From a virus (Duplodnaviria > Caudoviricetes): a stretch of 64,000 bases of DNA. The translations under genes and the position numbers were made by a program. The number at the start of each line of letters is the position of its first letter. Position 1 is the first letter of the stretch. Shown here piece by piece: positions 728 through 35,941 of the stretch. The notes under the pieces were generated by a model. It saw nothing but the letters and a program-made list of their open reading frames with translations, made no database searches and was not told where the DNA came from. The stretch is from positions 32,001-96,000 of the IMG/VR virus record IMGVR_UViG_3300037492_000170; one strand, written 5' to 3'.

Positions 728-1283
728 TCTAGCAAATCATATTAAAATGTACCCGCACTCAGCAATCATGGAAAAAGAAGGTAGGCTTTATGGGCAGTGG
801 ATAATAGGAAACAACTACCGGGCTACACAACCATATCATGGTTCCTACCCTCCATCATATGTGGAGCGCGTTAAATCTTTATTCCCAGACAATAAAAAGA
901 TACTACATCTATACTCTGGGATGGTCCAACCAGCAGAAGGAGAACAGACATTCGATATAAACCCTGCTTTAAACCCCACAAAATGTGGTAAAGCTGAGGA
1001 GTTATCTGATTATTTTTCTGAAAACGCTTTCAGTTTAGTCTTGGCAGACCCGCCATATACTCCAGCAGACGCTGCTAAATATGGTGCCAAGATGCCTATC
1101 ACGTACAGAGTTATGTCCGAGCTGTATAAAATCGTGGAGGTGGGGGGCGTAGTCGTGTGGCTTTGTACTAGAATACCACTTTGGAAAAAGATTGAGTGGA
1201 AATTGCTGGGAGTAATAGGGCTCTTTTGTGGCACTAATAGGGTGTATCGTGCTGTTGTTCTACTTCAAAAAATTAATGCTTGA
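708..1283 (+). CDS. putative amino (N6-adenine/N4-cytosine) methyltransferase
   Basis: ILHLYSG motif-I-like segment, DINP, and catalytic LVLADPPY motif. Confidence 0.7.
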   Translation: MRYRVHNLANHIKMYPHSAIMEKEGRLYGQWIIGNNYRATQPYHGSYPPSYVERVKSLFPDNKKILHLYSGMVQPAEGEQTFDINPALNPTKCGKAEELSDYFSENAFSLVLADPPYTPADAAKYGAKMPITYRVMSELYKIVEVGGVVVWLCTRIPLWKKIEWKLLGVIGLFCGTNRVYRAVVLLQKINA

Positions 1284-1307
1284 CAAAAAATTCTAAAATG
1301 GTATAAT
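1280..1307 (+). promoter_or_regulatory. sigma70-type promoter of the Y RNA/tRNA/ro60 operon
   Basis: TTGACA (1280-1285), 16-nt spacer with extended TG, TATAAT (1302-1307). Confidence 0.85.
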
Positions 1308-1336
1308 ACCCCCTAGTTTGGAAGCAGATAATTTTC

Positions 1337-1470
1337 GGGAGCGTCGGAGATGACACTTACTTCTCATGCTAAGAGAGAGAGAGACCTTGGTGCAAATCCA
1401 AGCGGGTATGCTTGCATATCTGTGGGCAAGTAGCAAGCCGCGTTGTCAGTGTCTTCGCTTCTTACCTCCC
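1337..1470 (+). ncRNA. Y RNA-like element Y1 (YrlA-like, circularly permuted tRNA cargo)
   Basis: GGGAG/CTCCC and GACACT/AGTGTC stems, CGTCG and TACTTC boxes; inside: anticodon-like arm, T arm CTTGG-TGCAAAT-CCAAG, loop-closed acceptor stem, D arm; upstream of ro60. Confidence 0.8.
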
Positions 1471-1484
1471 AACTTGTTTATTAC

Positions 1485-1551
1485 CAGTGGCGACGAATGA
1501 TAAGGATACTTCATGCTAAGAAAAACTCCCTATCAGTAAACTATCCCACTG
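1485..1551 (+). ncRNA. Y RNA-like element Y2
   Basis: CAGTGG/CCACTG and TGATAAGGA/TCCCTATCA stems; GACGAATG fits the bacterial Y RNA GNCGAAN(0-1)G motif; TACTTC box. Confidence 0.75.
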
Positions 1552-1561
1552 ATTATTATAA

Positions 1562-1629
1562 ACGAGCGGCGTTAGTGAGGATTACTTCATCTGAATTGAA
1601 AAAAACATCTTCACTGTTCCTTCCCTCGT
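1562..1629 (+). ncRNA. Y RNA-like element Y3
   Basis: ACGAG/CTCGT and AGTGAGGAT/ATCTTCACT stems; CGGCG and TACTTC boxes. Confidence 0.75.
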
Positions 1630-1644
1630 ATCATCTCTAGGTAG

Positions 1645-1756
1645 ACGTGCGGCGGCTGTATCAGGTACTTCGTGTAACTGGTTAAACACTCTTCCTAATC
1701 GGGAGACTTTCTGGGTTCAAATCCCAGAGTACCCCTGATACAAATATTACCCACGT
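1645..1756 (+). ncRNA. Y RNA-like element Y4 with embedded tRNA cloverleaf
   Basis: ACGTG/CACGT and TGTATCAGG/CCTGATACA stems; CGGCG and TACTTC boxes; enclosed D arm, anticodon arm and T arm (CTGGG-TTCAAAT-CCCAG). Confidence 0.8.
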
Positions 1757-1768
1757 TACTAAAATATA

Positions 1769-1828
1769 TCCTTGTGCCCGGATTAATTTTCCACCGAGCA
1801 ATAAGCTCAACAGCACAGGGAGTTTTTT
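1769..1828 (+). ncRNA. small three-way-junction RNA or terminator-like element
   Basis: TCCTTGTGC/GCACAGGGA closing stem, two inner hairpins, followed by T6. Confidence 0.4.
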
Positions 1829-1841
1829 AATGGGTGATTAA

Positions 1842-2012
1842 ATGACAAAAGATGAAACCATAAAACGTCTTTCTTCGTCTCTTTATGACGCAGCCTCTAA
1901 CCGCCAAGAAGATAAATCCCCAGAAGCAGTATTGAAAACTGTCTCACAGTGGTTAGAAGAATTACCTACTGAGATGGAAAAGCTATTGAAAGAGAAAGAA
2001 TCGGCTGGTTAG
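1842..2012 (+). CDS. small hypothetical protein (56 aa) inside the RNA operon
   Basis: GGGTGA RBS-like sequence, ATG 1842 to TAG 2012 (MTKDETIKRLSSSLYDAA...); the last codons overlap tRNA-Asp. Confidence 0.55.
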   Translation: MTKDETIKRLSSSLYDAASNRQEDKSPEAVLKTVSQWLEELPTEMEKLLKEKESAG

Positions 2013-2076
2013 TGTAGAGGTAACACATTGGATTGTCTATCCAATTTCAAGGGTTCAATTCCCTTACCAGTCGCCA
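2003..2076 (+). tRNA. trnD: tRNA-Asp(GTC)
   Basis: GGCTGGT/ACCAGTC acceptor, TTGGA-TTGTCTA-TCCAA anticodon arm, G73, encoded CCA. Confidence 0.92.
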
Positions 2077-2081
2077 AGTAT

Positions 2082-2156
2082 TGCGGGATAGTTCAGTAGA
2101 AGAACGCGTGGCTCATACCCACGAAGTCGAGAGTGCAATTCTCTCTCCCGCGACCA
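2082..2156 (+). tRNA. trnM: tRNA-Met(CAT), initiator-like
   Basis: TGCGGGA/TCCCGCG acceptor (weak 1:72 pair), CGTGG-CTCATAC-CCACG arm, CCA. Confidence 0.85.
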
Positions 2157-2258
2157 GTGGTGAAAGGGTGAATGCGTAACATATTGTTATTAGCCTCATC
2201 CAACCAGGGGATGGCACTTCGATTACGAATACAGTCATCCCCACTTATTTAAAAATAC

Positions 2259-2344
2259 GGAGGGGTGGGCGAGTGGTTGATGCCAACGGTCCTGAACACC
2301 GTAGGTCGAAAGACCCGTAGGTTCGAATCCTACTCCCTCTTCCA
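2259..2344 (+). tRNA. trnS: tRNA-Ser(TGA)
   Basis: ACGGT-CCTGAAC-ACCGT arm, long variable arm, GTTCGAATCC T arm, CCA; has C33 and U73. Confidence 0.85.
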
Positions 2345-2351
2345 TTAATAT

Positions 2352-2427
2352 GCCGGTGTAGCTCAATTGGCAGAGCAACTGACCTGTAATCAGTTTGTTG
2401 GGGGTTCGATTCCTCCTACCGGCTCCA
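2352..2427 (+). tRNA. trnT: tRNA-Thr(TGT)
   Basis: GCCGGTG/TACCGGC acceptor, ACTGA-CCTGTAA-TCAGT arm (C33), CCA. Confidence 0.88.
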
Positions 2428-2433
2428 GTGAAT

Positions 2434-2519
2434 GCAGGAGTGGAGGAATGGCATACTCAACGGACTTAAAATCCGTTGCCAGAAATGGATTGAGGGTTCG
2501 ACTCCCTCCTCCTGTACCA
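2434..2519 (+). tRNA. trnL: tRNA-Leu(TAA)
   Basis: ACGGA-CTTAAAA-TCCGT arm, long variable arm, A73, CCA. Confidence 0.92.
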
Positions 2520-2525
2520 GTATAC

Positions 2526-2603
2526 GGGGGTGTCGCTCAAATAGGTAGAAGCGCCTGGTTTAGAGCCAGTTCAGTAAAAGTTCGAATCTTTTCACCCCTA
2601 CCA
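2526..2603 (+). tRNA. tRNA with TAG anticodon (nominally Leu) on a short-variable-loop, Pro-like body
   Basis: GGGGGTG/CACCCCT acceptor, CTGG-TTTAGAG-CCAG arm, AAAAG-TTCGAAT-CTTTT T arm, CCA. Confidence 0.75.
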
Positions 2604-2609
2604 ATCAAT

Positions 2610-2687
2610 TCCCTGGTAGCTCAGTTGGTAGTAGCGTGTGACTGTTAATCACAAGGTTCGCAGGTTCGAGACCTGCCCAGGGAGCCA
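2610..2687 (+). tRNA. trnN: tRNA-Asn(GTT)
   Basis: TCCCTGG/CCAGGGA acceptor, TGTGA-CTGTTAA-TCACA arm, G73, CCA. Confidence 0.93.
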
Positions 2688-2694
2688 ATAAACG

Positions 2695-2779
2695 GGGGAA
2701 GCTGTAGAGATAGAGAGCTACGCTAGTCTGTAAAACTAGTCCTTCGGGTGAGCAGGGGCGGTACCTGCCTTCCCCACCA
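2695..2779 (+). tRNA. trnY: tRNA-Tyr(GTA), non-canonical D and T loops
   Basis: GGGGAAG/CTTCCCC acceptor, CTAGT-CTGTAAA-ACTAG arm, variable arm, T loop GGCGGTA, CCA. Confidence 0.85.
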
Positions 2780-2800
2780 GAATGGCTGAATAAGCCTAAA

Positions 2801-2871
2801 GCGGAGCGGCGGAGACTAGAGATACTTCAAACTGTTACTTTGACCAAACTCTAGTCAACACTACCCTCCAC
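2801..2871 (+). ncRNA. Y RNA-like element Y5, directly upstream of ro60
   Basis: GGAG/CTCC and GACTAGAG/CTCTAGTC stems; CGGCG, TACTTC and CTACC boxes; inner TCAAA-CTGTTAC-TTTGA hairpin. Confidence 0.78.
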
Positions 2872-2907
2872 ATCCTTTAATTCCACCAACACATATGGGA
2901 GGCGAAC

Positions 2908-4470
2908 ATGTCAAGATTCAATCAAAAAGCTGTTAATCCGAGGGATACAATCAACCATGAGGGTGCAAAAGCTTATGGTATGTTGAATCCAGAAATGGAG
3001 CTGTACGCCAGGACCGCTAGTTATCTGGCACAGGACACCAACTACTGCAAGGTTGCTGATGCAAATGCGCGCATCAAGGAACTTGTTGGCATCTGCGATA
3101 AGAACTTTGTTGGTAGACTTGCAGGGTACTTGAGACATCAGATGTATCTCAGGTCCACACCCATCTTGTTACTGACTTATCTTGCACAGTGCGGGAAGCT
3201 GGAAGCGTGGATGGTGCAAGATGTCATCTCTAGGGCTGACGAGATTAAAGAGTTGCTTGCAGCATGGCAGCAAGAGACTGGCAGAAGGGACCTAAAGAAG
3301 CTTCCGAAGGCTATGCAGAATGGTATTGCAAAAGCATTCGGTAAGTTTAACGCGTTCCAGTTCAGGAAGTACAACAAGCAGGGCAGAGAGGAAATCACAT
3401 TCCTCGATGCTATGCGTATCACCCATCCGAAGCCCATGAATGAGGAGCAGAATACCACTTATAAGGCTATTAAAGAGGGTAATCTCCCACCGATTGAAAC
3501 ATGGGAAACCGTGCTATCATCTGGTATGAATAAGAGAGAAGCGTGGGAGCTACTTATCAAGGGGCACAAGCTTCCCTACATGGCACTTCTACGTAACCTG
3601 GTTAACATCTCTAAAGCCGATGTTGATAATGTCTACATAGATATGGTTGTTAATCAACTCACCAACAAGGATGAGATTCTCAGGTCTAAGCAGTTCCCGT
3701 TCAGATGGACTGCTGCTCACGACCAGCTAGAGCTTATGGGAGGAAACCAATTCATTACCACCGCATTCCAGCGCGCACTTGAAGAGGCTCTGAAGACTTC
3801 AGTACAGAACATTGCTGGGCTTAACTTGAAACAGAACACTATAATAGCTTGTGATGTGTCAGGGTCCATGCGTAATCCACTCAGCGTTAAGTCTAAAATT
3901 CAGCTTGTAGATGTGGGTTTGCTTATGGGTAAGTTAATTAGCGCGCATAATCCCAGGTCTTTGTATGGTGTGTTTGGTGACATCTGGATGCCTGTACATA
4001 GTGGCTCCTCTGTTCTAGAGAAAGCTTACTATGACCCCCACCAGATAGGGTTCTCCACACAGGGGCATAAGGTTATTGATTGGGCTGCAGATAACAACAT
4101 AAAGGCAGAGGTGTTCATGTTCTTCTCAGACATGGAAATTTATTCCCTTTCTGATAAGGACTTCTTTCGTAGTACCTCTAGATTGTATCTACCCATTACT
4201 AACACAGTTACTTGGGATGAAAGGAGAGCATCATTTAGAAAATCATGGAACAATTATAAGAAGCTTATGCCTAACGCTAAGTGTTACTTGTTTGATTTAT
4301 CTTCTTATGGCAGCACACCAGTTGATGTTCAGCGTGATGATGTTATCTTCTCTTCTGGTTTTTCTGAGAAGATATTTGAAGTGCTGGATGGTACTGGAAA
4401 CTGGAACGAAACACGAACTAAAATAATGATGGGAGCTAGTAAAGTAAGGGAGGAGGAAATGGCAGCATGA
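2908..4470 (+). CDS. rsr: Ro60/Rsr RNA-binding protein (TROVE + vWA)
   Basis: TINHEGAKAY start, YLRHQMYLRS, LPYMALLRNL, QFPFR TROVE motifs and vWA MIDAS DVSGSM; GGGAGG RBS. Confidence 0.95.
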   Translation: MSRFNQKAVNPRDTINHEGAKAYGMLNPEMELYARTASYLAQDTNYCKVADANARIKELVGICDKNFVGRLAGYLRHQMYLRSTPILLLTYLAQCGKLEAWMVQDVISRADEIKELLAAWQQETGRRDLKKLPKAMQNGIAKAFGKFNAFQFRKYNKQGREEITFLDAMRITHPKPMNEEQNTTYKAIKEGNLPPIETWETVLSSGMNKREAWELLIKGHKLPYMALLRNLVNISKADVDNVYIDMVVNQLTNKDEILRSKQFPFRWTAAHDQLELMGGNQFITTAFQRALEEALKTSVQNIAGLNLKQNTIIACDVSGSMRNPLSVKSKIQLVDVGLLMGKLISAHNPRSLYGVFGDIWMPVHSGSSVLEKAYYDPHQIGFSTQGHKVIDWAADNNIKAEVFMFFSDMEIYSLSDKDFFRSTSRLYLPITNTVTWDERRASFRKSWNNYKKLMPNAKCYLFDLSSYGSTPVDVQRDDVIFSSGFSEKIFEVLDGTGNWNETRTKIMMGASKVREEEMAA

Positions 4471-4712
4471 GTAAATTACTAATTATTATCCTAGTGTTAT
4501 TTGGAGCAGCTCAAAGTTGGGCACAAAGCAAGGATGTTAGGAACAGCAGCGGTGAGCTAGTTCAGGTATGGCGGCAACAGGGTAATCAGACTGATGTAAG
4601 AAGCGGAGATAACGAACTGTTGTATACACGTAACAGACAGGGTAACACTGTTACTATACGAAGCGCATCAGGAGAGGAAGAAGGGAGCGAGTACTACGAT
4701 GACAGGGATTAA
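4467..4712 (+). CDS. small exported protein with short beta repeats
   Basis: Signal-peptide-like N-terminus; three DVR/TIR-xxxGE-type repeats; ATGA overlap with ro60. Confidence 0.65.
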   Translation: MSKLLIIILVLFGAAQSWAQSKDVRNSSGELVQVWRQQGNQTDVRSGDNELLYTRNRQGNTVTIRSASGEEEGSEYYDDRD

Positions 4713-15166: not shown

Positions 15167-15256
15167 CTTGCACCTCCTATTAGTGCGTCCTAGACTGTTT
15201 CTTAGAGGCAGGTCAGCTAGGATACTGACTTTTCGGGTACGTTGCCCTAGCCTCTA
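15167..15256 (-). ncRNA. HNH-associated pseudoknotted leader RNA, copy A
   Basis: TAGAGGC/GCCTCTA P1, TA-GGG..CCC-GAA, GTCAG/CTGAC P3; loop TCCTAG pairs with downstream CTAGGA. Confidence 0.75.
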
Positions 15257-15353
15257 TTGTTATTATACTCACATTTTGGCAGGGATGAGCCATAAGAAGA
15301 TGATGACGATAATTAGAAAAGCCAAAGCACCCAGATATAACGCGAACTCGCGG

Positions 15354-17669: not shown

Positions 17670-19522
17670 TACAACTCGCAAGAGTTTCCTGCACAGGCAA
17701 ATTCTCGACTACCTGTGGTAGTATCTGTATTCTCATACTCTGAAAGTTTACTGAAGTCAAGGACTGGGAGTTCTCTCAACAGTCTATGATATTCTATTTC
17801 TGATACCTCCTCATACGGAGCTTGCGCGTACGACTTGTTCTCGTATGGGAAGAAAGCAACTCCATTAATAGTATCAAAATGTTTATACACATAAGCTATA
17901 ACCTCCAACCACTCATCATCTTTAACAAAGATGGTGCAGCTCATGTTCTGTTCTGCCCAATTCTCTACTAACATTCTATACCACTCAAGTTGACCAATTG
18001 CTGTATCCTGCTCACGAGTCTTCGCTCCGTCTGGAGAACGCATAGGGAACGAGAATATTGCAGTATCGTGGTTGCCTTTGTCTAACTCATAAGGCATACC
18101 TTGGTCAACCATCATCCTAAACAGAGCATCGTGCATCGAGATACGTACGCGTCTAAGATAATAATTAGCCCACCTGGAGTGCATACCTGAAGAGCAATCA
18201 ACCATCTGACTCACAGTACCACTAGGCTTTCCAAGCGTTATAGCTGCTGGCATATTTATACCAAGTGCTGCTGATGCCTGTTTAGCAGTCTTCACGGCAG
18301 TAGTACGCCAATGGCGTAGTGTCTCTGGTGTTATCAGATTTATATTATCACAGAGTCCTGTAAGTGATACCCCTAGTAACCTCTCTTCTTCTGCATTTTT
18401 AGCCCACTCAGGACGTAAATGAGGGAAGTATGTAAGTGTAGACTGAATACATCCCATCCAGGTCGCTGTTCGTATCTTGTCTGCTACACTATCAAAATCA
18501 TCATCTGCTCGAATGACTACCTCAGTTAAATTGCATAAACCCATATCACGTAGTAGTGTTTCCCCACAGGGATTTGATATCACTATAGCACTCTTATCTC
18601 TACGTTTAGGGCTTCGTTTTCTCGCTGCCACTAAATTAAATATGCCACGCTCACCAGAGCCAGACTTAGCCATATCTATGAACTCTTGGGTAAACTTGAG
18701 GACATCAGGTTTCTTTCTATAAACTGCTGAGATATTTGCCATGAACCTTCTTGGGTGAAAGTTACCCTGCTTTGCATTCTGCATATCCATATCATCTACA
18801 TCACATAAACATATCATAGCAGTCCGACGAACACCACCACAAACCACCGCAGATCCTACCTCACACATCATATCAAACACTTCTATAGATTTAAGCTTAC
18901 GATCTTGGGCACCTATAATTGTTTCTCTCAGGAACTCCAAACAACGCGCTAAAGGCTCAGGACCGGAAGCATAACCGCCTGATATCACTAAGGGAGTTCC
19001 CGCTGGTCTCACTTGAGAGTAATCAAACACTGCATCTCTACCGTTGAACCATTCCTGTATACCAAAATCAACTGCTTTCTTCCAACCTAACCTGCTATCT
19101 CCAACAACATGCCTCAATGTAGGCAAATTCCGCTGCTTTTTTATCTCAGGAAGTTGCTCTAACCACTTTGCCTCCACAGAAAACCCAACACCAGTGCCAG
19201 CAAGTTCAATATACATTGCCTCGCCAAAACCTTCTAGTGAGGTCGAGCAAAAACCTGAACAACCGTATGCAGCTATATTATCTCGTCTTGCATTCTCCCC
19301 AGCAGACCAGACAAGCCTCATACTTGCCATGACACCTTTCGTAAGCATATAATCTTTAATCTTTTTCTTTGTCTTGGTGGGTATATTCTGGCAGTTCTTC
19401 GTTTCGTTAAATATAAAATTGCAGTATCTATCAACAGTCTCTTCCCAGACTTCACGCCTCCCTAATTCTGGGAGAAAACGACTGTATGTACGTAGAAAAA
19501 TAAACTCCTCGTATATCCCCAT
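17669..19522 (-). CDS. nrdJ: class II (adenosylcobalamin-dependent) monomeric ribonucleotide reductase
   Basis: RTYSR, VVCGGVRRTA, SNPCGE, KPSGTVSQ and C-terminal CAGNSC motifs; no beta-subunit gene nearby. Confidence 0.92.
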   Translation of the reverse strand: MGIYEEFIFLRTYSRFLPELGRREVWEETVDRYCNFIFNETKNCQNIPTKTKKKIKDYMLTKGVMASMRLVWSAGENARRDNIAAYGCSGFCSTSLEGFGEAMYIELAGTGVGFSVEAKWLEQLPEIKKQRNLPTLRHVVGDSRLGWKKAVDFGIQEWFNGRDAVFDYSQVRPAGTPLVISGGYASGPEPLARCLEFLRETIIGAQDRKLKSIEVFDMMCEVGSAVVCGGVRRTAMICLCDVDDMDMQNAKQGNFHPRRFMANISAVYRKKPDVLKFTQEFIDMAKSGSGERGIFNLVAARKRSPKRRDKSAIVISNPCGETLLRDMGLCNLTEVVIRADDDFDSVADKIRTATWMGCIQSTLTYFPHLRPEWAKNAEEERLLGVSLTGLCDNINLITPETLRHWRTTAVKTAKQASAALGINMPAAITLGKPSGTVSQMVDCSSGMHSRWANYYLRRVRISMHDALFRMMVDQGMPYELDKGNHDTAIFSFPMRSPDGAKTREQDTAIGQLEWYRMLVENWAEQNMSCTIFVKDDEWLEVIAYVYKHFDTINGVAFFPYENKSYAQAPYEEVSEIEYHRLLRELPVLDFSKLSEYENTDTTTGSREFACAGNSCEL

Positions 19523-22367: not shown

Positions 22368-22458
22368 AACTACCTCCTGTAGTATTATCCTGATTTTGTT
22401 AGTTAATGGGCAGGTGGTTCAGGAATACCACTGTTCGGGAGCTACCCTAGCCCATTAA
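22368..22458 (-). ncRNA. HNH-associated pseudoknotted leader RNA, copy B
   Basis: TTAATGGGC/GCCCATTAA P1, TAGGGTAGCTCCCGAA; loop TCCTGA pairs with downstream TCAGGA. Confidence 0.75.
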
Positions 22459-25344: not shown

Positions 25345-25426
25345 TATATTACTCCTATCCTTTGTAGTTTATAGTGGGCAGGTAGCTAAGGTTTCTACTT
25401 TTCGGTTCCGGTAACCTAGCCCATTA
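25345..25426 (-). ncRNA. leader RNA copy C (no HNH downstream)
   Basis: TAATGGGC-TAGG..CCGAAAA-GTAG-AAACCTTAG-CTAC-CT-GCCCACTA; the pseudoknot partner is degenerate. Confidence 0.7.
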
Positions 25427-28920: not shown

Positions 28921-29012
28921 TTCACTCCTTATTGTGTTATCCTTAGAAGTTATTTAATGGGAAGGCGGCTAAGGTTTCCGCTTTATCGGGTGTACACCCC
29001 TATCCCATTAAA
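28921..29012 (-). ncRNA. HNH-associated pseudoknotted leader RNA, copy D
   Basis: TTAATGGGA/TCCCATTAA P1, GCGG/CCGC P3; loop CCTTAG pairs with downstream CTAAGG. Confidence 0.75.
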
Positions 29013-34214: not shown

Positions 34215-34305
34215 AATATCACTCCTTATGGTGTTTATCCTTAGTGATTATCATGGGCAGGCCGCTAAGGTTTCGGCTCTTCGGGTCTAGATTCCCTAGC
34301 CCATG
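34215..34305 (-). ncRNA. HNH-associated pseudoknotted leader RNA, copy E
   Basis: CATGGGC/GCCCATG P1, GCCG/CGGC P3; loop CCTTAG pairs with CTAAGG; overlaps the 3' end of the upstream glycosyltransferase gene. Confidence 0.75.
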
Positions 34306-35941
34306 CTAAAACTTGTTCAATAGCTTCTATAACTTCCTCCACAGAATGATTCATACAATCATGGTCTGGCAAAGGACACTGTTCTCTATCTTGTTGATAT
34401 GGTTGATTATTAAAGCATTTATATTCTATAGGGCACGGCTTCCACAAGTTAACTCTATCGGGACCCTCATGACCATACTGCTCTGGTCTAGTCCTCCCAA
34501 ACATGGTTACTGTTGGTACATCAAAAGCTGCTGCCACATGACTCCCCATAGTGTCCAAACTAACTACAAGGCTTGAAGAAGAAATCCATCGAAAAGCTTC
34601 TCTAAATTTAAGGTTTGATATCGACACAACCTTATCAAAAGAATCGTGCTGCTCCTCACCTGTCAGGTGGATAACATCATAACCCTTTTCAGTTAGATAA
34701 TCAATAATAGCCTGCCATCTGTCATTGGACCAATACTTAGTTCTGCTGATGTCTGAGAAATCAAAGAGTTTAGCATTACTTTGCGGGCATATAACAACAT
34801 AAGGTCCACTATTCTCCATAGGCTCTATTCCAAATATCTGTGGGCGCGTACTTGGAGCCACGGGAACATCTATCATCCTGCAATACGCCTCAGATATGTG
34901 TCCCTCCCACTTATTCTCTGCCATCCAACTATATATACTCTTCTCTACTCGATATGTTCTCTGTGCATCAAACTGACCCTTGGCTATCTCATCAATATCT
35001 GGATTTCCTTTGAATACGTGCTCACCGTAAGGATGATAGACTGATATATTTCGTTCTGGATACATCTCTCGTAGTTGCCTGAAAGCAGGTTCAGACATAA
35101 CCAAATCCCCGATAGCGTGACTCAAAGAAATGTGAATACCTGGTTTCAAGTTCTTCTTCAAAATATTGAACCTACGTAAATCATCGAGAGATTTACTCCC
35201 GTCTTTTACTGCTCTCGCTCCACCAGTACCTGCCCGGAAATGATATGCTATCGCCCCTGGATGCACTAATACTTTCATACCTTCGAGATGAACGCGCCAG
35301 GACAAGTGTGTATCCTCTCTATGAAAATTCAAGAGAACCGTCTCAAACCCATTAATCCGGTCGAGTGCTGCCTCTGTTAACATCATAGCAGAGTTTATAT
35401 GCTCCACCGGAAAAGGCTTCTTCCTAGTGTGAAGGGACCACTGAACATTAACACTGTCACTAAGATGCTCAATAGTTCCGTGTTTATATCTATCATCGTC
35501 GAGTTTAAAGGTATCCGGTTTCGTCCCGGCGAATAGCATGAGTCCAGATGCAGCACCTACAAGTGGGTCATCGAACAAAGGAACTACCTTTTCCAAGTAG
35601 TCTGGAGATAACCACGAGTCATCCTCTGCTCGATATACCAAGGGATTCCCCCAGTCACGCGCACCTAACCACCCGGCTTGGTATACCGCCCCTACATGAT
35701 AAGTGCTTGGTCCTGGTAGAATTCTTATTCTATGCCCCTGCATCTGTAATTCACCAATAATTTTAGAATAAAGTGAATGCTTGGTCCACTTCTCCTGCGT
35801 AAATGCAACATCATCAGAGTCGTCTACGATACATAAATCAAAGTTTTTAAATGTTTGCATCCTCAAACTGAACAATAGCTGATGCACAATATCCATGCGG
35901 TTGTGCGTCGCAACTATCACTGTCACCCGTTTATTGGACAT
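34265..35941 (-). CDS. GT2 + GT9 (heptosyltransferase-like) double glycosyltransferase
   Basis: VATHNR, VDDS, EDD and REDT (GT2); AIGDLV, KYW, SLDTMGSHVAAAFDVPTVTMFG (GT9). Confidence 0.88.
   Translation of the reverse strand: MSNKRVTVIVATHNRMDIVHQLLFSLRMQTFKNFDLCIVDDSDDVAFTQEKWTKHSLYSKIIGELQMQGHRIRILPGPSTYHVGAVYQAGWLGARDWGNPLVYRAEDDSWLSPDYLEKVVPLFDDPLVGAASGLMLFAGTKPDTFKLDDDRYKHGTIEHLSDSVNVQWSLHTRKKPFPVEHINSAMMLTEAALDRINGFETVLLNFHREDTHLSWRVHLEGMKVLVHPGAIAYHFRAGTGGARAVKDGSKSLDDLRRFNILKKNLKPGIHISLSHAIGDLVMSEPAFRQLREMYPERNISVYHPYGEHVFKGNPDIDEIAKGQFDAQRTYRVEKSIYSWMAENKWEGHISEAYCRMIDVPVAPSTRPQIFGIEPMENSGPYVVICPQSNAKLFDFSDISRTKYWSNDRWQAIIDYLTEKGYDVIHLTGEEQHDSFDKVVSISNLKFREAFRWISSSSLVVSLDTMGSHVAAAFDVPTVTMFGRTRPEQYGHEGPDRVNLWKPCPIEYKCFNNQPYQQDREQCPLPDHDCMNHSVEEVIEAIEQVLAWARESRPEEPKP

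What the first reader, a model, noticed from the sequence alone, without database searches (positions are those of the whole stretch)
1361..2843. Y RNA cargo loops look like anticodon stem-loops (GCU, GCU, UGA, GUU): candidate anticodon-nuclease decoys
Seen: at the TACTTC box, four elements form a hairpin with a 7-nt loop. Y1 is TTCTC-ATGCTAA-GAGAG, Y2 TTC-ATGCTAA-GAA, Y3 TTCA-TCTGAAT-TGAA and Y5 TCAAA-CTGTTAC-TTTGA. The central triplets are Ser, Ser, Ser and Asn anticodons. The Y5 loop differs by one base from this phage's tRNA-Asn loop (CTGTTAA). The Y3 loop shares CTGAA, including the odd C33, with its tRNA-Ser loop (CCTGAAC). Known: PrrC, RloC, VapC and PARIS AriB cut anticodon loops. Inference: non-chargeable, Ro60-stabilised anticodon mimics could titrate such nucleases or tRNA-modifying enzymes.
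Basis: partly seen in the sequence, partly recalled or inferred. Interest (0 to 1): 0.85.

Follow-up and report, generated by a model that had tools for sequence, protein, structure and literature searches.

The report
Y RNAs displaying tRNA anticodon arms
A phage Ro60 gene is preceded by five partner "Y" RNAs, four of which carry a hairpin built like a tRNA anticodon arm; the same feature recurs beside Ro60 genes of many Bacteroidota, so the likeness is real, but its proposed role as a decoy for tRNA-cutting enzymes is untested.

Summary
Observation confirmed. All four hairpins lie where stated (1361-1377, 1510-1522, 1586-1600, 2827-2843), directly at a TACTTC box inside five Y-RNA-like scaffolds upstream of a Ro60/TROVE gene (2908-4470).

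The box and its 5' GNCG motif mark a YrlA-related family found beside Ro60 in 203 fetched loci. In two separate censuses a 7-nt loop is the commonest hairpin after the box: 39 of 179 elements (shuffles mean 6.8) and 42 of 238 (shuffles mean 9.8). The loops favour C32, U33, R37 and A38, while the middle triplet varies.

In 30 of 30 T-arm- and D-arm-anchored relatives, the two bases before the variable loop pair with the two bases after the D arm. The hairpin therefore completes a 5-bp anticodon stem with a 7-nt loop, and the Ro60-binding stem branches off between positions 28 and 29. Of 54 loops that could be compared, 24 equal a real tRNA anticodon loop letter for letter.

Y2, Y3 and Y5 keep only this arm. 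The decoy role is untested. A competitive-inhibitor role for YrlA was already floated in print (PMC7790460). The feature is not phage-specific. This scan has noted similar anticodon-display RNAs beside Ro60-like genes on other DNA.

Verdict: new variant of a known kind.

The parts
1280..1307 (+). Sigma-70-type promoter-like site (TTGACA, 16 nt, TATAAT, with TG) just upstream of Y1
   Evidence: 12 of 12 consensus matches. This is a consensus match only; transcription is not shown.
1337..1470 (+). Y1: a Y RNA-like scaffold (outer stem GGGAG/CTCCC, GNCG motif, inner stem, TTACTTC box). It carries an anticodon-arm-like hairpin at 1361-1377 (loop ATGCTAA), a T arm with loop TGCAAAT, a closed acceptor-like stem and a short D-like arm.
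   Evidence: Fold. nhmmer box hit. ARAGORN at -ps90 calls 1331-1411 'tRNA-Ser(gct)' using this hairpin as the anticodon arm. The T arm begins 27 nt after the box rather than 24. The hairpin is not in every minimum-energy fold.
1485..1551 (+). Y2: a minimal Y RNA. Scaffold (GACGAATG, an exact GNCGAAN0-1G) plus the hairpin TTC-ATGCTAA-GAA at 1510-1522 and an AAAAC linker. No T or D arm.
   Evidence: Folds (z -1.72). Hairpin +0.7 kcal/mol. The same build occurs in L062 at box end 179 (TTC-ATTCCAA-GAA-AAAAC).
1562..1629 (+). Y3: a minimal Y RNA. Scaffold plus the hairpin TTCA-TCTGAAT-TGAA at 1586-1600. The loop has C at the position of U33.
   Evidence: Folds (z -2.79). A strain in run X3 keeps this hairpin unchanged.
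1640..1760 (+). Y4: the same scaffold carrying an unpermuted cloverleaf (1663-1735) joined through its acceptor stem. The TACTTC box forms the acceptor 5' strand, and the anticodon loop is aberrant (CTAATCG, C at position 37).
   Evidence: ARAGORN 'tRNA-Ile(aat)'. Rfam tRNA 32.2 bits. Fold (z -2.94). The same type occurs in L087, L031 and L001.
2003..2687 (+). Seven tRNA genes (Asp, Met, Ser, Thr, Leu, Leu, Asn) between Y4 and Y5
2695..2779 (+). Sub-threshold tRNA-Tyr(GTA)-like gene with a long variable arm, an encoded CCA and an unusual T loop
   Evidence: ARAGORN finds it only at -ps90. It is missed at default settings and by Rfam.
2801..2871 (+). Y5: a minimal Y RNA. Scaffold plus the hairpin TCAAA-CTGTTAC-TTTGA at 2827-2843 and a CCAAA linker.
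   Evidence: Fold (z -4.83; 0 of 200 shuffles fold as well). The best nhmmer box hit in the genome. Same-build elements in L086, L087 and L031 share the ACCAAA-type linker and carry loops CTTGAAA, CTGAAAA and CTGTAAA. The loop CTGTTAC equals a real tRNA-Asn loop in the data.
2908..4470 (+). Ro60 / TROVE-vWA protein, 520 aa
   Evidence: Pfam TROVE 7.3e-25. PHROG 850 'RNA-binding protein' 3.4e-45. 1885 relatives found. The DxSGSM (MIDAS-type) columns are invariant in alignment A1.

Best explanation
SHOWN. The four hairpins are the anticodon-arm element of YrlA-related Y RNAs, the partner RNAs of Ro60.
- The family has a conserved 5' handle (GNCG motif, inner stem, UACUUC box) and pairs its two ends into the Ro60-binding stem.
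- In complete members, the hairpin after the box (3 bp plus a 7-nt loop) is continuous with a 2-bp helix. That helix forms between the bases before the variable loop and the bases after the D arm.
- Together these make a 5-bp stem and 7-nt loop at tRNA positions 27-43. The Ro60-binding stem branches out between positions 28 and 29.
- The loops follow anticodon-loop rules: Y32, U33, few A34, R37, A38, and G37 after G36. Often they equal a real tRNA loop.
- In this phage, Y1 is a near-complete permuted mimic and Y4 an unpermuted one. Y2, Y3 and Y5 have lost everything but this arm.

INFERRED. Ro60 binds the handle, and the anticodon-arm look-alike is the effector end. It offers host proteins that read anticodon loops a non-chargeable, Ro60-protected copy. 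My most likely concrete role is occupation of, or competition for, anticodon-loop nucleases or modification enzymes during infection. This last step is a minority bet within the whole statement (about 0.2).
For: Family and handle
- nhmmer with the 26-nt handle finds 201 hits in the 123 metagenome and viral Ro60 loci plus the window.
- It finds 242 hits in 76 of 80 GTDB genome loci. Of these, 240 lie on the Ro60 strand and 230 have an exact TACTTC.
- Only the five array elements score E < 1 in the 122,744-base phage genome.
- The inner stem covaries in 7 of 8 pairs across 12 minimal elements.
- Rfam YrlA aligns relative L051 over its full length at 38.2 bits, with the box and hairpin as an insert after the model's CUAc.

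Hairpin
- A 7-nt loop is the modal class in both censuses: 39 of 179 (shuffles mean 6.8, maximum 14 in 100) and 42 of 238 (mean 9.8, maximum 19).
- In an ungapped alignment anchored on the box and T arm, 14 of 14 sequences were used. The hairpin helix is 90% paired, and both variable pairs change by compensation.

Anticodon-arm position
- The T loop starts most often 24 nt after the box. This equals tRNA numbering 27-43, then 44-48, then 49-65.
- The 27-28:42-43 pairing is kept in 30 of 30 anchored elements, with 8 pair types. Partner shuffles give a mean of 11.4 and a maximum of 18.
- In those 30: U33 24, Y32 25, R37 30, A38 23, A34 4, with 18 different triplets.

Loop rules (71 unique hairpins)
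- C32 37, U33 51, R37 56, A38 45, A34 10. Generic 7-nt-loop hairpins of the same loci give 25%, 29%, 54% and 36% (n = 9554).
- G36 goes with G37: 9/1 against 3/31, Fisher P = 2.9e-6.
- 24 of 54 comparable loops are identical to a real tRNA loop of the same triplet. The flank-shuffled control gives a mean of 17.0 and a maximum of 23, with 0 of 1000 reaching 24.

Independent programs
- ARAGORN reads the hairpin as an anticodon arm in L006, L042 (twice) and L100, and in Y1 at -ps90.
- The Rfam tRNA model aligns it to the anticodon arm in L076.
- L062 244-389 is an unpermuted tRNA-like RNA with the Ro60 stem inserted between the D arm and this hairpin.

Context for the inferred role
- The phage tRNA-Thr and tRNA-Ser have C33, and tRNA-Asp has U37. 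Phage tRNA anticodon-loop changes are proposed to evade tRNA nucleases (PMC10264068; search listing and start of abstract only).
- The phage encodes an RNA ligase.
- YrlA was suggested as a competitive inhibitor of an anticodon nuclease (PMC7790460; passage read).
Against: - No hairpin is called in 59 of 179 and 80 of 238 elements. Other loop sizes occur at about shuffle level.
- A whole sub-type links the box to the T arm by an unpaired ACAGGGAAC-like stretch. Salmonella YrlA and the Rfam consensus also lack the hairpin. The arm is therefore dispensable for Y RNA function as such.
- Y1 is not in the canonical frame: its linker to the T arm is 3 nt longer, and I found no 27-28 partner.
- Y2's stem has 3 bp at +0.7 kcal/mol, and Y3 has C33.
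- The statistics count related sequences, so the P values are inflated. The one-per-locus counts are 18 and 23 of 27.
- Chen et al. 2014 read the stem-loop at this place as a variable arm. Which helix stacks under the D stem is unknown.
- A stoichiometric decoy would have to compete with a very large tRNA pool.
- Expression, Ro60 binding and any ligand are unshown.
Confidence: 0.6

Rival explanations
1. Reader's reading in its strict form. The loops are decoys tuned to particular tRNAs. Ro60-stabilised, non-chargeable anticodon mimics titrate or block host anticodon nucleases (of the PrrC, RloC, VapC or AriB type) or tRNA-modifying enzymes, as a phage counter-defence.
For: - The loops are anticodon-like down to identity-linked positions 37 and 38.
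- Four minimal elements of the same build, in four related phage contigs, carry four different triplets while C32, U33 and A37 stay.
- The phage's own tRNAs show C33 and U37 deviations, and the phage has an RNA ligase.
- A competitive-inhibitor idea for YrlA is in print (PMC7790460).
Against: - Nothing tested binding or cleavage.
- The same hairpins are common in Bacteroidota chromosomes: 42 of 238 elements, in 32 of 76 loci. They are therefore not a phage invention.
- The match to this phage's own tRNAs is within chance (2 of 3 triplets, my estimate P about 0.065). In relatives I saw no match between Y triplets and the tRNAs within 4 kb (the tRNA sets are incomplete).
- Three- and four-bp stems are weak substrates.
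- tRNA is far more abundant than any decoy is likely to be.
Confidence: 0.17
2. Vestige or structural cap. The hairpin is what is left of the anticodon arm of the tRNA (or tRNA dimer) from which YrlA-type RNAs arose. It is kept only because a stable 7-nt U-turn loop closes the stem or helps folding, and no ligand reads the loop.
For: - The dimeric-tRNA origin model (10.1101/312249, section 9 read) predicts such remnants.
- The Rfam tRNA model aligns the handle to the D-arm region and the hairpin to the anticodon arm.
- The arm is absent in many Y RNAs.
- The triplets drift freely among elements of the same build.
Against: - A neutral remnant should lose Y32, U33, R37 and A38, and also the G36-G37 link. 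Yet these hold across loci whose Ro60 proteins are only 30-48% identical.
- Letter-perfect matches to real loops exceed the flank-shuffled control.
- Repeated gene conversion from tRNA genes could mimic this and was not excluded.
Confidence: 0.2
3. Plain variable arm. The stem-loop is the 'V' arm of YrlA as labelled by Chen et al. 2014. It is analogous to the long variable arm of class II tRNAs, and its likeness to anticodon loops is incidental.
For: - It lies after the conserved YUAY and before the T arm, where Chen et al. place V.
- In the Salmonella crystal structure the Ro60-side stem occupies the anticodon-stem position.
Against: - A complete 4-5-nt variable loop (AGGUC-like) still follows the hairpin.
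- The hairpin's 3' strand runs straight into the 42-43 bases, which pair with 27-28.
- The loop is 7 nt with anticodon-loop composition.
- From recall, not from a call: class II variable arms have loops of about 3-5 nt.
Confidence: 0.08
4. Chance hairpins next to a repeated box, with no conserved structure.
For: Three- to five-bp stems are easy to find. Y1's hairpin is not in every minimum-energy fold.
Against: The 7-nt class is enriched about four- to six-fold in two separate data sets. There are compensatory changes, and 4 of 5 elements in the window have the hairpin (P about 1e-5).
Confidence: 0.02

Closest known systems
YrlA (Y RNA-like A; Rfam RF02553; Chen et al. 2014, PMC4201824; Wang et al. 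2018, bioRxiv 10.1101/312249)
   Same: Encoded next to Ro60 on the same strand. A 5' GNCG(A/U)A-type motif, a conserved YUAY (here the UAC of the box), and 5' and 3' ends paired into the Ro60-binding stem. Complete members have a T arm, a closed acceptor-like stem and a D arm in permuted order. Relative L051 aligns to RF02553 over its full length.
   Different: None of Y1-Y5 is matched by RF02553, even at E <= 10. None of 14 relatives' loci reaches its gathering score. The family carries an extra 3-bp, 7-nt-loop hairpin at the YUAY that completes an anticodon arm. Three of the five window elements lack the T, acceptor-like and D arms altogether.
YrlB (Salmonella, Mycobacterium smegmatis; Chen et al. 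2014)
   Same: A shorter second Y RNA encoded beside YrlA that shares the 5' Ro60 motif.
   Different: M. smegmatis YrlB is said to keep a T arm. Y2, Y3 and Y5 keep only an anticodon-arm-like hairpin. I made no sequence comparison, because no YrlB sequence was at hand.
Deinococcus radiodurans Yrn1
   Same: Chen et al. 2014 note that Yrn1 can be drawn with a 'potential anticodon arm' with a 5-bp stem.
   Different: That loop has 6 nt, and its arm order and Ro60 module differ. Here the loop has 7 nt with anticodon-loop composition across many loci.
Thermus phage phiLo Ro60 with Yrl1 and Yrl2 (PMC12135203)
   Same: A phage-encoded Ro60 with Y RNA-like genes just upstream, identified through a CGAA motif. 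Binding to Ro60 and to host PNPase was shown in vitro (passages read).
   Different: The passages I read describe no tRNA-like or anticodon-like module. Two RNAs, not five.
tRNA anticodon stem-loops, including phage tRNAs with altered anticodon loops (PMC10264068; PMC11555353)
   Same: A 5-bp (composite) stem and a 7-nt loop with Y32, U33, R37 and A38. 24 of 54 loops are identical to real tRNA loops.
   Different: No acceptor end, so they cannot be charged. They are mounted on a Ro60-binding stem. Stems of the minimal forms have 3-5 bp. I saw only the search listings and the starts of the abstracts of these two papers.
Ro60-like (DUF2828) phage proteins with 'handle' RNAs showing anticodon-loop mimics, noted earlier in this scan on other genomes (e1-5990841, e1-5751783, e1-5635449, e1-5945325, e1-5699725)
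   Same: The same theme: a ring protein of the Ro60 kind flanked by several small RNAs that share a handle and display anticodon-arm look-alikes.
   Different: These are AI notes that I did not check. They report another handle (CAGCAA-type) and another protein family. Here the protein is a clear TROVE Ro60, and I tie the handle to YrlA.

Membership tests
YrlA-type Y RNA (Chen et al. 2014; Rfam RF02553) | Encoded within about 4 kb of a Ro60/TROVE gene, on the same strand | tested here: met
   All five elements lie 40-1570 nt upstream of the TROVE ORF 2908-4470, on the + strand.
YrlA-type Y RNA (Chen et al. 2014; Rfam RF02553) | 5' motif GNCGAAN0-1G (the proposed Ro60 contact) | tested here: inconclusive
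   Exact in 1 of 5 (Y2, GACGAATG). GNCG alone is present in 5 of 5. Relatives mostly read G.CGTAGA.
YrlA-type Y RNA (Chen et al. 2014; Rfam RF02553) | Conserved YUAY before the variable region | tested here: inconclusive
   TTAC in Y1 and Y3, ATAC in Y2 and Y5, GTAC in Y4. TAC is invariant in 5 of 5. L051's box aligns at the model's CUAc.
YrlA-type Y RNA (Chen et al. 2014; Rfam RF02553) | Nearly invariant T and D stem-loops forming a tRNA elbow, in permuted order (T before D) | tested here: not met
   Absent in Y2, Y3 and Y5. Y1 has a T arm with loop TGCAAAT and only a putative 3-bp D arm. Y4 has both in normal tRNA order.
YrlA-type Y RNA (Chen et al. 2014; Rfam RF02553) | Score at or above the Rfam gathering threshold (69 bits) | tested here: not met
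   No RF02553 match on Y1-Y5 at E <= 10. None at gathering score in 14 relatives' loci. L051 scores 38.2 bits and L076 29.5 bits.
Y RNA in the broad sense (Ro60 partner RNA) | 5' and 3' ends pair into a bulged stem that carries the Ro60 site | tested here: met
   Outer and inner stems appear in all five folds. The inner stem has compensatory changes in 7 of 8 pairs across 12 minimal elements.
Y RNA in the broad sense (Ro60 partner RNA) | Bound by Ro60 in vivo or in vitro | not testable with these tools
   No RNA run holds the stretch.
tRNA anticodon stem-loop (structural class) | 7-nt loop closed by a 5-bp stem | tested here: met
   The loop has 7 nt in 4 of 4. Stems have 5, 3, 4 and 5 bp. In relatives the stem is a composite of 2 + 3 bp.
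tRNA anticodon stem-loop (structural class) | U33 and a purine at position 37 | tested here: met
   Window: U33 in 3 of 4 (Y3 has C) and A37 in 4 of 4. Family: U33 in 51 and R37 in 56 of 71. Anchored set: 24 and 30 of 30. Real tRNAs: 352 and 355 of 361.
tRNA anticodon stem-loop (structural class) | Lies at positions 27-43 relative to the variable loop, T arm and D arm | tested here: met
   This holds for relatives: and 86 (30 of 30). In the window only Y1 has a T arm, and its spacing is 3 nt longer. Y2, Y3 and Y5 have no other tRNA part to measure against.
tRNA (functional) | Open acceptor stem with a 3' end that can be charged | tested here: not met
   There is no acceptor end in Y1, Y2, Y3 or Y5. 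Y4's acceptor stem continues into the scaffold.
Anticodon-nuclease decoy or inhibitor (no established RNA family) | Binds or is cut by an anticodon-loop nuclease and protects tRNA | not testable with these tools
   No computation available here addresses this.

The most novel reading that the evidence does not exclude
Ro60/Y-RNA particles of Bacteroidota and their phages are anticodon-display devices. Each Y RNA mounts the anticodon arm of a particular tRNA, with the matching 37/38 bases, on a Ro60-protected handle. The purpose would be to bait, block or sense enzymes that attack or modify anticodon loops. Phages would carry arrays of them (five here, three reduced to the bare arm) as a counter-measure in the contest over tRNAs. 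This would give bacterial Ro60 a concrete job, and it would link it to the similar handle-RNA systems that this scan noted beside Ro60-like proteins in other phages.
Probability: 0.15. Interest if true: 0.85.

Novelty: new variant of a known kind. Interest (0 to 1): 0.62.

Why it matters
The function of bacterial Ro60 and of the tRNA-like end of its Y RNAs is a long-standing open question. The authors of the YrlA papers state that the interacting factor is unknown.

My calls show that a large Ro60-linked RNA family carries a full anticodon arm whose loops follow the rules of real anticodon loops. The family occurs in 76 of 80 sampled genome loci, nearly all Bacteroidota, and in related phages. 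Some members, three in this phage, are reduced to that arm alone. This points the search for the effector at proteins that read anticodon loops.

It also makes the published competitive-inhibitor idea directly testable with short RNAs.

There is an annotation problem as well. tRNA finders call some of these RNAs as tRNA genes: 'tRNA-Ile(aat)' here, and Ile, Thr and Pro calls in L006, L042 and L100.

What I could read of the literature labels this stem-loop a variable arm. I could not see the supplements of Chen et al. 2014, which may show it.

Tried and rejected
- **DNA search of the phage collection** with 1200-4500: it found only tRNA matches, no relative.
- **Single-protein scan of viral contigs**: nothing found. 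An alignment query was needed.
The large contigs of the nearest Ro60 proteins (P0005, P0014, P0016) could not be fetched that way.
- **Rfam**: no YrlA match on the window's elements.
- **First hairpin caller** required negative energy and lost 3-bp stems. I replaced it with one uniform caller: stem of at least 3 bp starting at box bases 3-6, loop 3-12, energy at most +1.0 kcal/mol.
- **Rows dropped.** Of 201 nhmmer hits, 182 were non-identical and 179 had at least 45 nt downstream. Of 242 hits in the second set, 238 were kept. Weak hits (E up to 10) were kept, not filtered. In one search, 37 elements had the T loop at +24, and 7 without a D arm by my pattern were set aside. In some searches the T-arm-anchored loops came from the first set only, because I had not yet stored that value for the second set.
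- **My first model**, in which the box's two U's pair with bases 42-43, was rejected for complete members. It still holds for the minimal forms.
- **MAFFT alignment of 12 minimal elements**: it misaligned the hairpins, so RNAalifold returned only the inner stem.
- **T-loop and D-loop likeness** of the 7-nt loops: considered and dropped. C at the third loop position occurs in only 3 of 37.
- **Sequencing runs**: no RNA holder was listed.
- **Contigs of four DNA runs**: one strain in X3 has Y3's hairpin through Y4, and Y5, unchanged. It has other sequence left of 1582 and a different tRNA block. This gave nothing on the loops.
- **My pattern for more elements in the genome** had the wrong spacing and found none. 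nhmmer on the laid genome replaced it.
- **RtcB**: none in the phage.
- **Papers not held**: PMC10870794, PMC6047535 and 10.1093/nar/gkw722. What I say of Sim and Wolin 2018 and of Burroughs and Aravind 2016 comes only from citations inside papers I read.
- **Not-in-print claim.** It rests on searches, on the passages read, and on no supplements.

Full report
**What is in the window.** The window is part of a 122,744-base virus record rated 99% complete. It encodes a portal protein and a family A DNA polymerase.

ORF 2908-4470 on the + strand is a Ro60 protein:
- Pfam TROVE, 7.3e-25.
- PHROG 850, 3.4e-45.
- 1885 relatives; the nearest are 44-48% identical.

Upstream, on the same strand, lie the following features:
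- A perfect sigma-70-like promoter match at 1280-1307.
- Four elements with a TACTTC box, at 1358, 1507, 1583 and 1666.
- A 56-codon ORF.
- Seven tRNA genes.
- A sub-threshold tRNA-Tyr-like gene at 2695-2779.
- A fifth box element at 2823.

Each element folds as an outer stem, an internal loop with a GNCG motif, an 8-10-bp inner stem, the box, and a variable "cargo". A handle profile finds only these five at E < 1 in the whole phage genome.

**The observation.**
- Y5 (z -4.83) and Y3 (z -2.79) are solid.
- Y2 has a 3-bp stem at +0.7 kcal/mol.
- Y1's hairpin depends on the window that is folded.

Four of five elements with a box-anchored hairpin and a 7-nt loop is far above the shuffle rate of 6.8 in 179. 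I estimate P at about 1e-5. Y1 and Y2 share their loop by paralogy, so they are not independent.

However, two of three distinct Y triplets matching one of the phage's ten tRNA anticodons is within chance by my estimate (about 0.065).

**What family this is.** With an alignment of 25 Ro60 proteins I fetched three sets of loci:
- 80 metagenome loci.
- 43 viral loci.
- Later, as an independent set, 80 loci from GTDB species genomes, nearly all Bacteroidota.

A 26-nt profile of the handle gave these results:
- 201 hits in the first two sets plus the window.
- 242 hits in 76 of the 80 genome loci. Of these, 240 lie on the Ro60 strand and 230 have an exact TACTTC.
- One to seven elements per locus. 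An array of five is therefore at the upper end but not unique.

The closest phage contigs (L031/L085, L086, L087) have six elements just upstream of Ro60.

The handle agrees with what Chen et al. 2014 describe for YrlA (sections read):
- A 5' GNCGAAN0-1G motif thought to contact Ro60.
- A conserved YUAY that begins the "V" region.
- A T arm, a closed acceptor-like stem and a D arm.

The Rfam YrlA model does not match the window's elements. It also matches none of 14 relatives' loci at its gathering score. It does align the complete relative in L051 over its full length at 38.2 bits. In that alignment the box and its hairpin form an 18-nt insert after the model's CUAc. So this is a YrlA-related family with an added hairpin at the YUAY.

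**Is the hairpin conserved, and is it anticodon-like?** I applied one uniform caller to all non-identical elements.

| Measure | First set | Second set |
|---|---|---|
| Elements | 179 | 238 |
| 7-nt loop (the mode) | 39 | 42 |
| Shuffles, mean | 6.8 | 9.8 |
| Shuffles, maximum of 100 | 14 | 19 |
| No hairpin called | 59 | 80 |

All other loop sizes sit near the shuffle level.

Composition of the first set's 37 unique loops, against 9554 generic 7-nt-loop hairpins from the same loci:

| Position | Y hairpins (of 37) | Generic hairpins |
|---|---|---|
| C32 | 23 | 25% |
| U33 | 25 | 29% |
| R37 | 30 | 54% |
| A38 | 29 | 36% |

The second set replicates this: U33 in 27 and R37 in 27 of 36.

Pooled over 71 unique hairpins:
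- U33 in 51 and R37 in 56.
- A34 in only 10 (P = 8e-4 against 31%).
- The 44 loops with both U33 and R37 carry 25 different triplets.

Further tests:
- G37 goes with G36: 9/1 against 3/31, Fisher P = 2.9e-6.
- Of the 54 loops for which the data held a real tRNA with the same triplet, 24 are identical to that tRNA's loop in all seven letters. Shuffling the flanks among Y loops gives a mean of 17.0 and never reached 24 in 1000 trials.
- Y5's CTGTTAC is one of the 24.

These sequences are related, so the P values are upper bounds on the significance. Counting one hairpin per locus gives U33 in 18 and R37 in 23 of 27.

**Where the hairpin sits in complete members.**
- In elements with a T arm, the T loop most often starts 24 nt after the box. 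That is the tRNA spacing for a 17-nt arm, a 5-nt variable loop (often AGGUC) and a 5-bp T stem.
- An ungapped alignment of the 14 first-set elements with that spacing was anchored only on the box and T arm. In it the hairpin helix is 90% paired, with compensatory changes at both variable pairs.
- The outer two "pairs" with the box's U's do not covary. Instead, the two bases just before the variable loop are complementary to the two bases that follow N26 behind the D arm.
- That pairing holds in all 30 elements where a D arm could be found (9 first set, 21 second set; 7 without a recognisable D arm were set aside). It shows eight pair types, and partner shuffles give a mean of 11.4 and a maximum of 18.
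- This is the 27-28:42-43 top of a tRNA anticodon stem. The hairpin's 3' strand runs straight into it.
- The result is a composite 5-bp stem with a 7-nt loop. The Ro60-binding stem leaves between positions 28 and 29.
- In these 30, U33 occurs in 24 and R37 in 30. The lower three pairs are all formed in 20 and two of three in 7. There are 18 different triplets.

Independent programs agree:
- ARAGORN calls four such elements as tRNAs, with the hairpin as the anticodon arm. At a slightly lowered threshold it does the same for Y1.
- The Rfam tRNA model aligns the hairpin of two L076 elements to the anticodon arm, at 26.5 and 24.2 bits.
- L062 244-389 is the unpermuted counterpart. It has acceptor stem, D arm, then the Ro60 stem closed by a loop, then box, hairpin, variable loop, T arm and acceptor 3' strand.

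**The window's five elements in this light.**
- Y1 is a near-complete permuted mimic. Its hairpin is self-contained (5 bp, using the box's U's), and its linker to the T arm is 3 nt longer than canonical.
- Y4 is a different graft: a whole cloverleaf attached by its acceptor stem.
- Y2, Y3 and Y5 are minimal. They have the handle, the arm and an A-rich linker, and nothing else.
- Such minimal forms are common: 20 of 119 T-arm-less elements in the first set and 17 of 72 in the second have the 7-nt-loop hairpin.
- Their inner stems covary.
- Y5's counterparts of the same build in three related phage contigs keep C32, U33 and A37 but read UGA, GAA and GUA where Y5 reads GUU.

**Function.** Nothing here tests function.

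What is established in the literature I read:
- Ro60 binds the Y RNA stem.
- The other end of the RNA tethers an effector, which is PNPase in Deinococcus.
- YrlA is modified by tRNA enzymes.
- The ligand of YrlA's tRNA-like domain is unknown.
- A phage Ro60 with two Y RNA-like partners binds host PNPase in vitro.
- Hughes et al. 2020 proposed that the YrlA tRNA-like domain, which their anticodon nuclease does not cut, might competitively inhibit that nuclease.

My committed reading is that the arm is the effector end, and that it engages proteins that read anticodon loops. Within that, occupation of anticodon-loop nucleases or modification enzymes is the most likely concrete role.

Context in favour:
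- C33 in the phage's tRNA-Thr and tRNA-Ser, and U37 in its tRNA-Asp. This is the kind of change proposed to evade tRNA nucleases (PMC10264068; listing and start of abstract only).
- An RNA ligase elsewhere in the genome.

Against:
- The arm is absent from many Y RNAs.
- The feature is chromosomal as well as viral.
- The minimal stems are short.
- A stoichiometric decoy must compete with abundant tRNA.

A vestige kept for folding remains a serious rival.

**Novelty.** Y RNAs next to Ro60, their tRNA mimicry, multiple Y RNAs per locus, phage copies and the inhibitor idea are all known.

What I did not find in the texts I could read or search:
- That the stem-loop labelled V is a complete, rule-abiding anticodon arm with the Ro60 stem branching from it.
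- That minimal Y RNAs consist of that arm alone.

Supplements were closed and two reviews were not held, so this claim is limited. Earlier notes of this scan report the same theme beside Ro60-like proteins of another family in other phages. I did not check them.

I rate this a new variant of a known kind, of real interest to the Ro60 and tRNA-defence fields, with the functional claim still open.

Noticed in passing
window 2695-2779 (+): A tRNA-Tyr(GTA)-like gene with a long variable arm, an encoded CCA and an unusual T loop. ARAGORN finds it only at -ps90. Default ARAGORN and Rfam both miss it.
   Followed up: partly
window 2259-2344, 2352-2427, 2003-2076 (+): The phage tRNA-Ser (loop CCTGAAC) and tRNA-Thr (loop CCTGTAA) have C where U33 is nearly universal. 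Among 361 real tRNAs in my data, 352 have U33. tRNA-Asp (loop TTGTCTA) has a pyrimidine at position 37. This fits the published idea that phage tRNAs change their anticodon loops to escape nucleases.
   Followed up: partly
window 2156-2245 (+): A well-folding stretch (z -3.69) between tRNA-Met and tRNA-Ser. Its second half is a 9-bp stem enclosing CACTTC plus a small hairpin (TTCG-ATTA-CGAA). It looks like a sixth, degenerate box element without the GNCG motif.
   Followed up: no
window 1769-1828 (+): A long hairpin (z -3.34) followed by a run of six T, just after Y4. It may be a terminator that would separate Y1-Y4 from the tRNA/Y5/Ro60 unit. The consensus scan missed it because of its large loop.
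   Followed up: no
L062 244-389: An unpermuted tRNA-like RNA (Rfam tRNA 48.7 bits with an 86-nt insert). A loop-closed Ro60-type stem sits between the D arm and the anticodon-like hairpin. It is the circular permutation of the YrlA layout.
   Followed up: partly
window 1663-1735; L006 5830-5902; L042 5709-5778 and 6062-6127; L100 3786-3854: tRNA finders annotate parts of Y RNAs as tRNA genes (Ile-aat, Ile-tat, Thr-tgt, Pro-tgg, Ile-gat). This is a likely source of false tRNA calls near Ro60 genes.
   Followed up: partly
own genome C1:17115-18125 (outside the window; L124 1036-2046): An RNA ligase (Pfam RNA_ligase plus the PHA02142 OB domain; PHROG 968), directly upstream of a tRNA-His gene at 18267-18342. 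No RtcB is present in the genome.
   Followed up: partly
window 15188-15257, 22388-22457, 25359-25426, 28941-29010, 34238-34306 (-): Five matches to the Rfam int-alpA RNA family above its gathering score.
   Followed up: no
window 1582-2920, as laid with run X3: A related strain keeps Y3's hairpin through Y4, and Y5 with the Ro60 start, nearly or fully identical. It has different sequence to the left of 1582 and a rearranged tRNA block, so the array seems to be modular.
   Followed up: no
L032 3491-3883: A tmRNA gene (90.4 bits) lies between Y RNA-like elements and the Ro60 gene of that locus.
   Followed up: no
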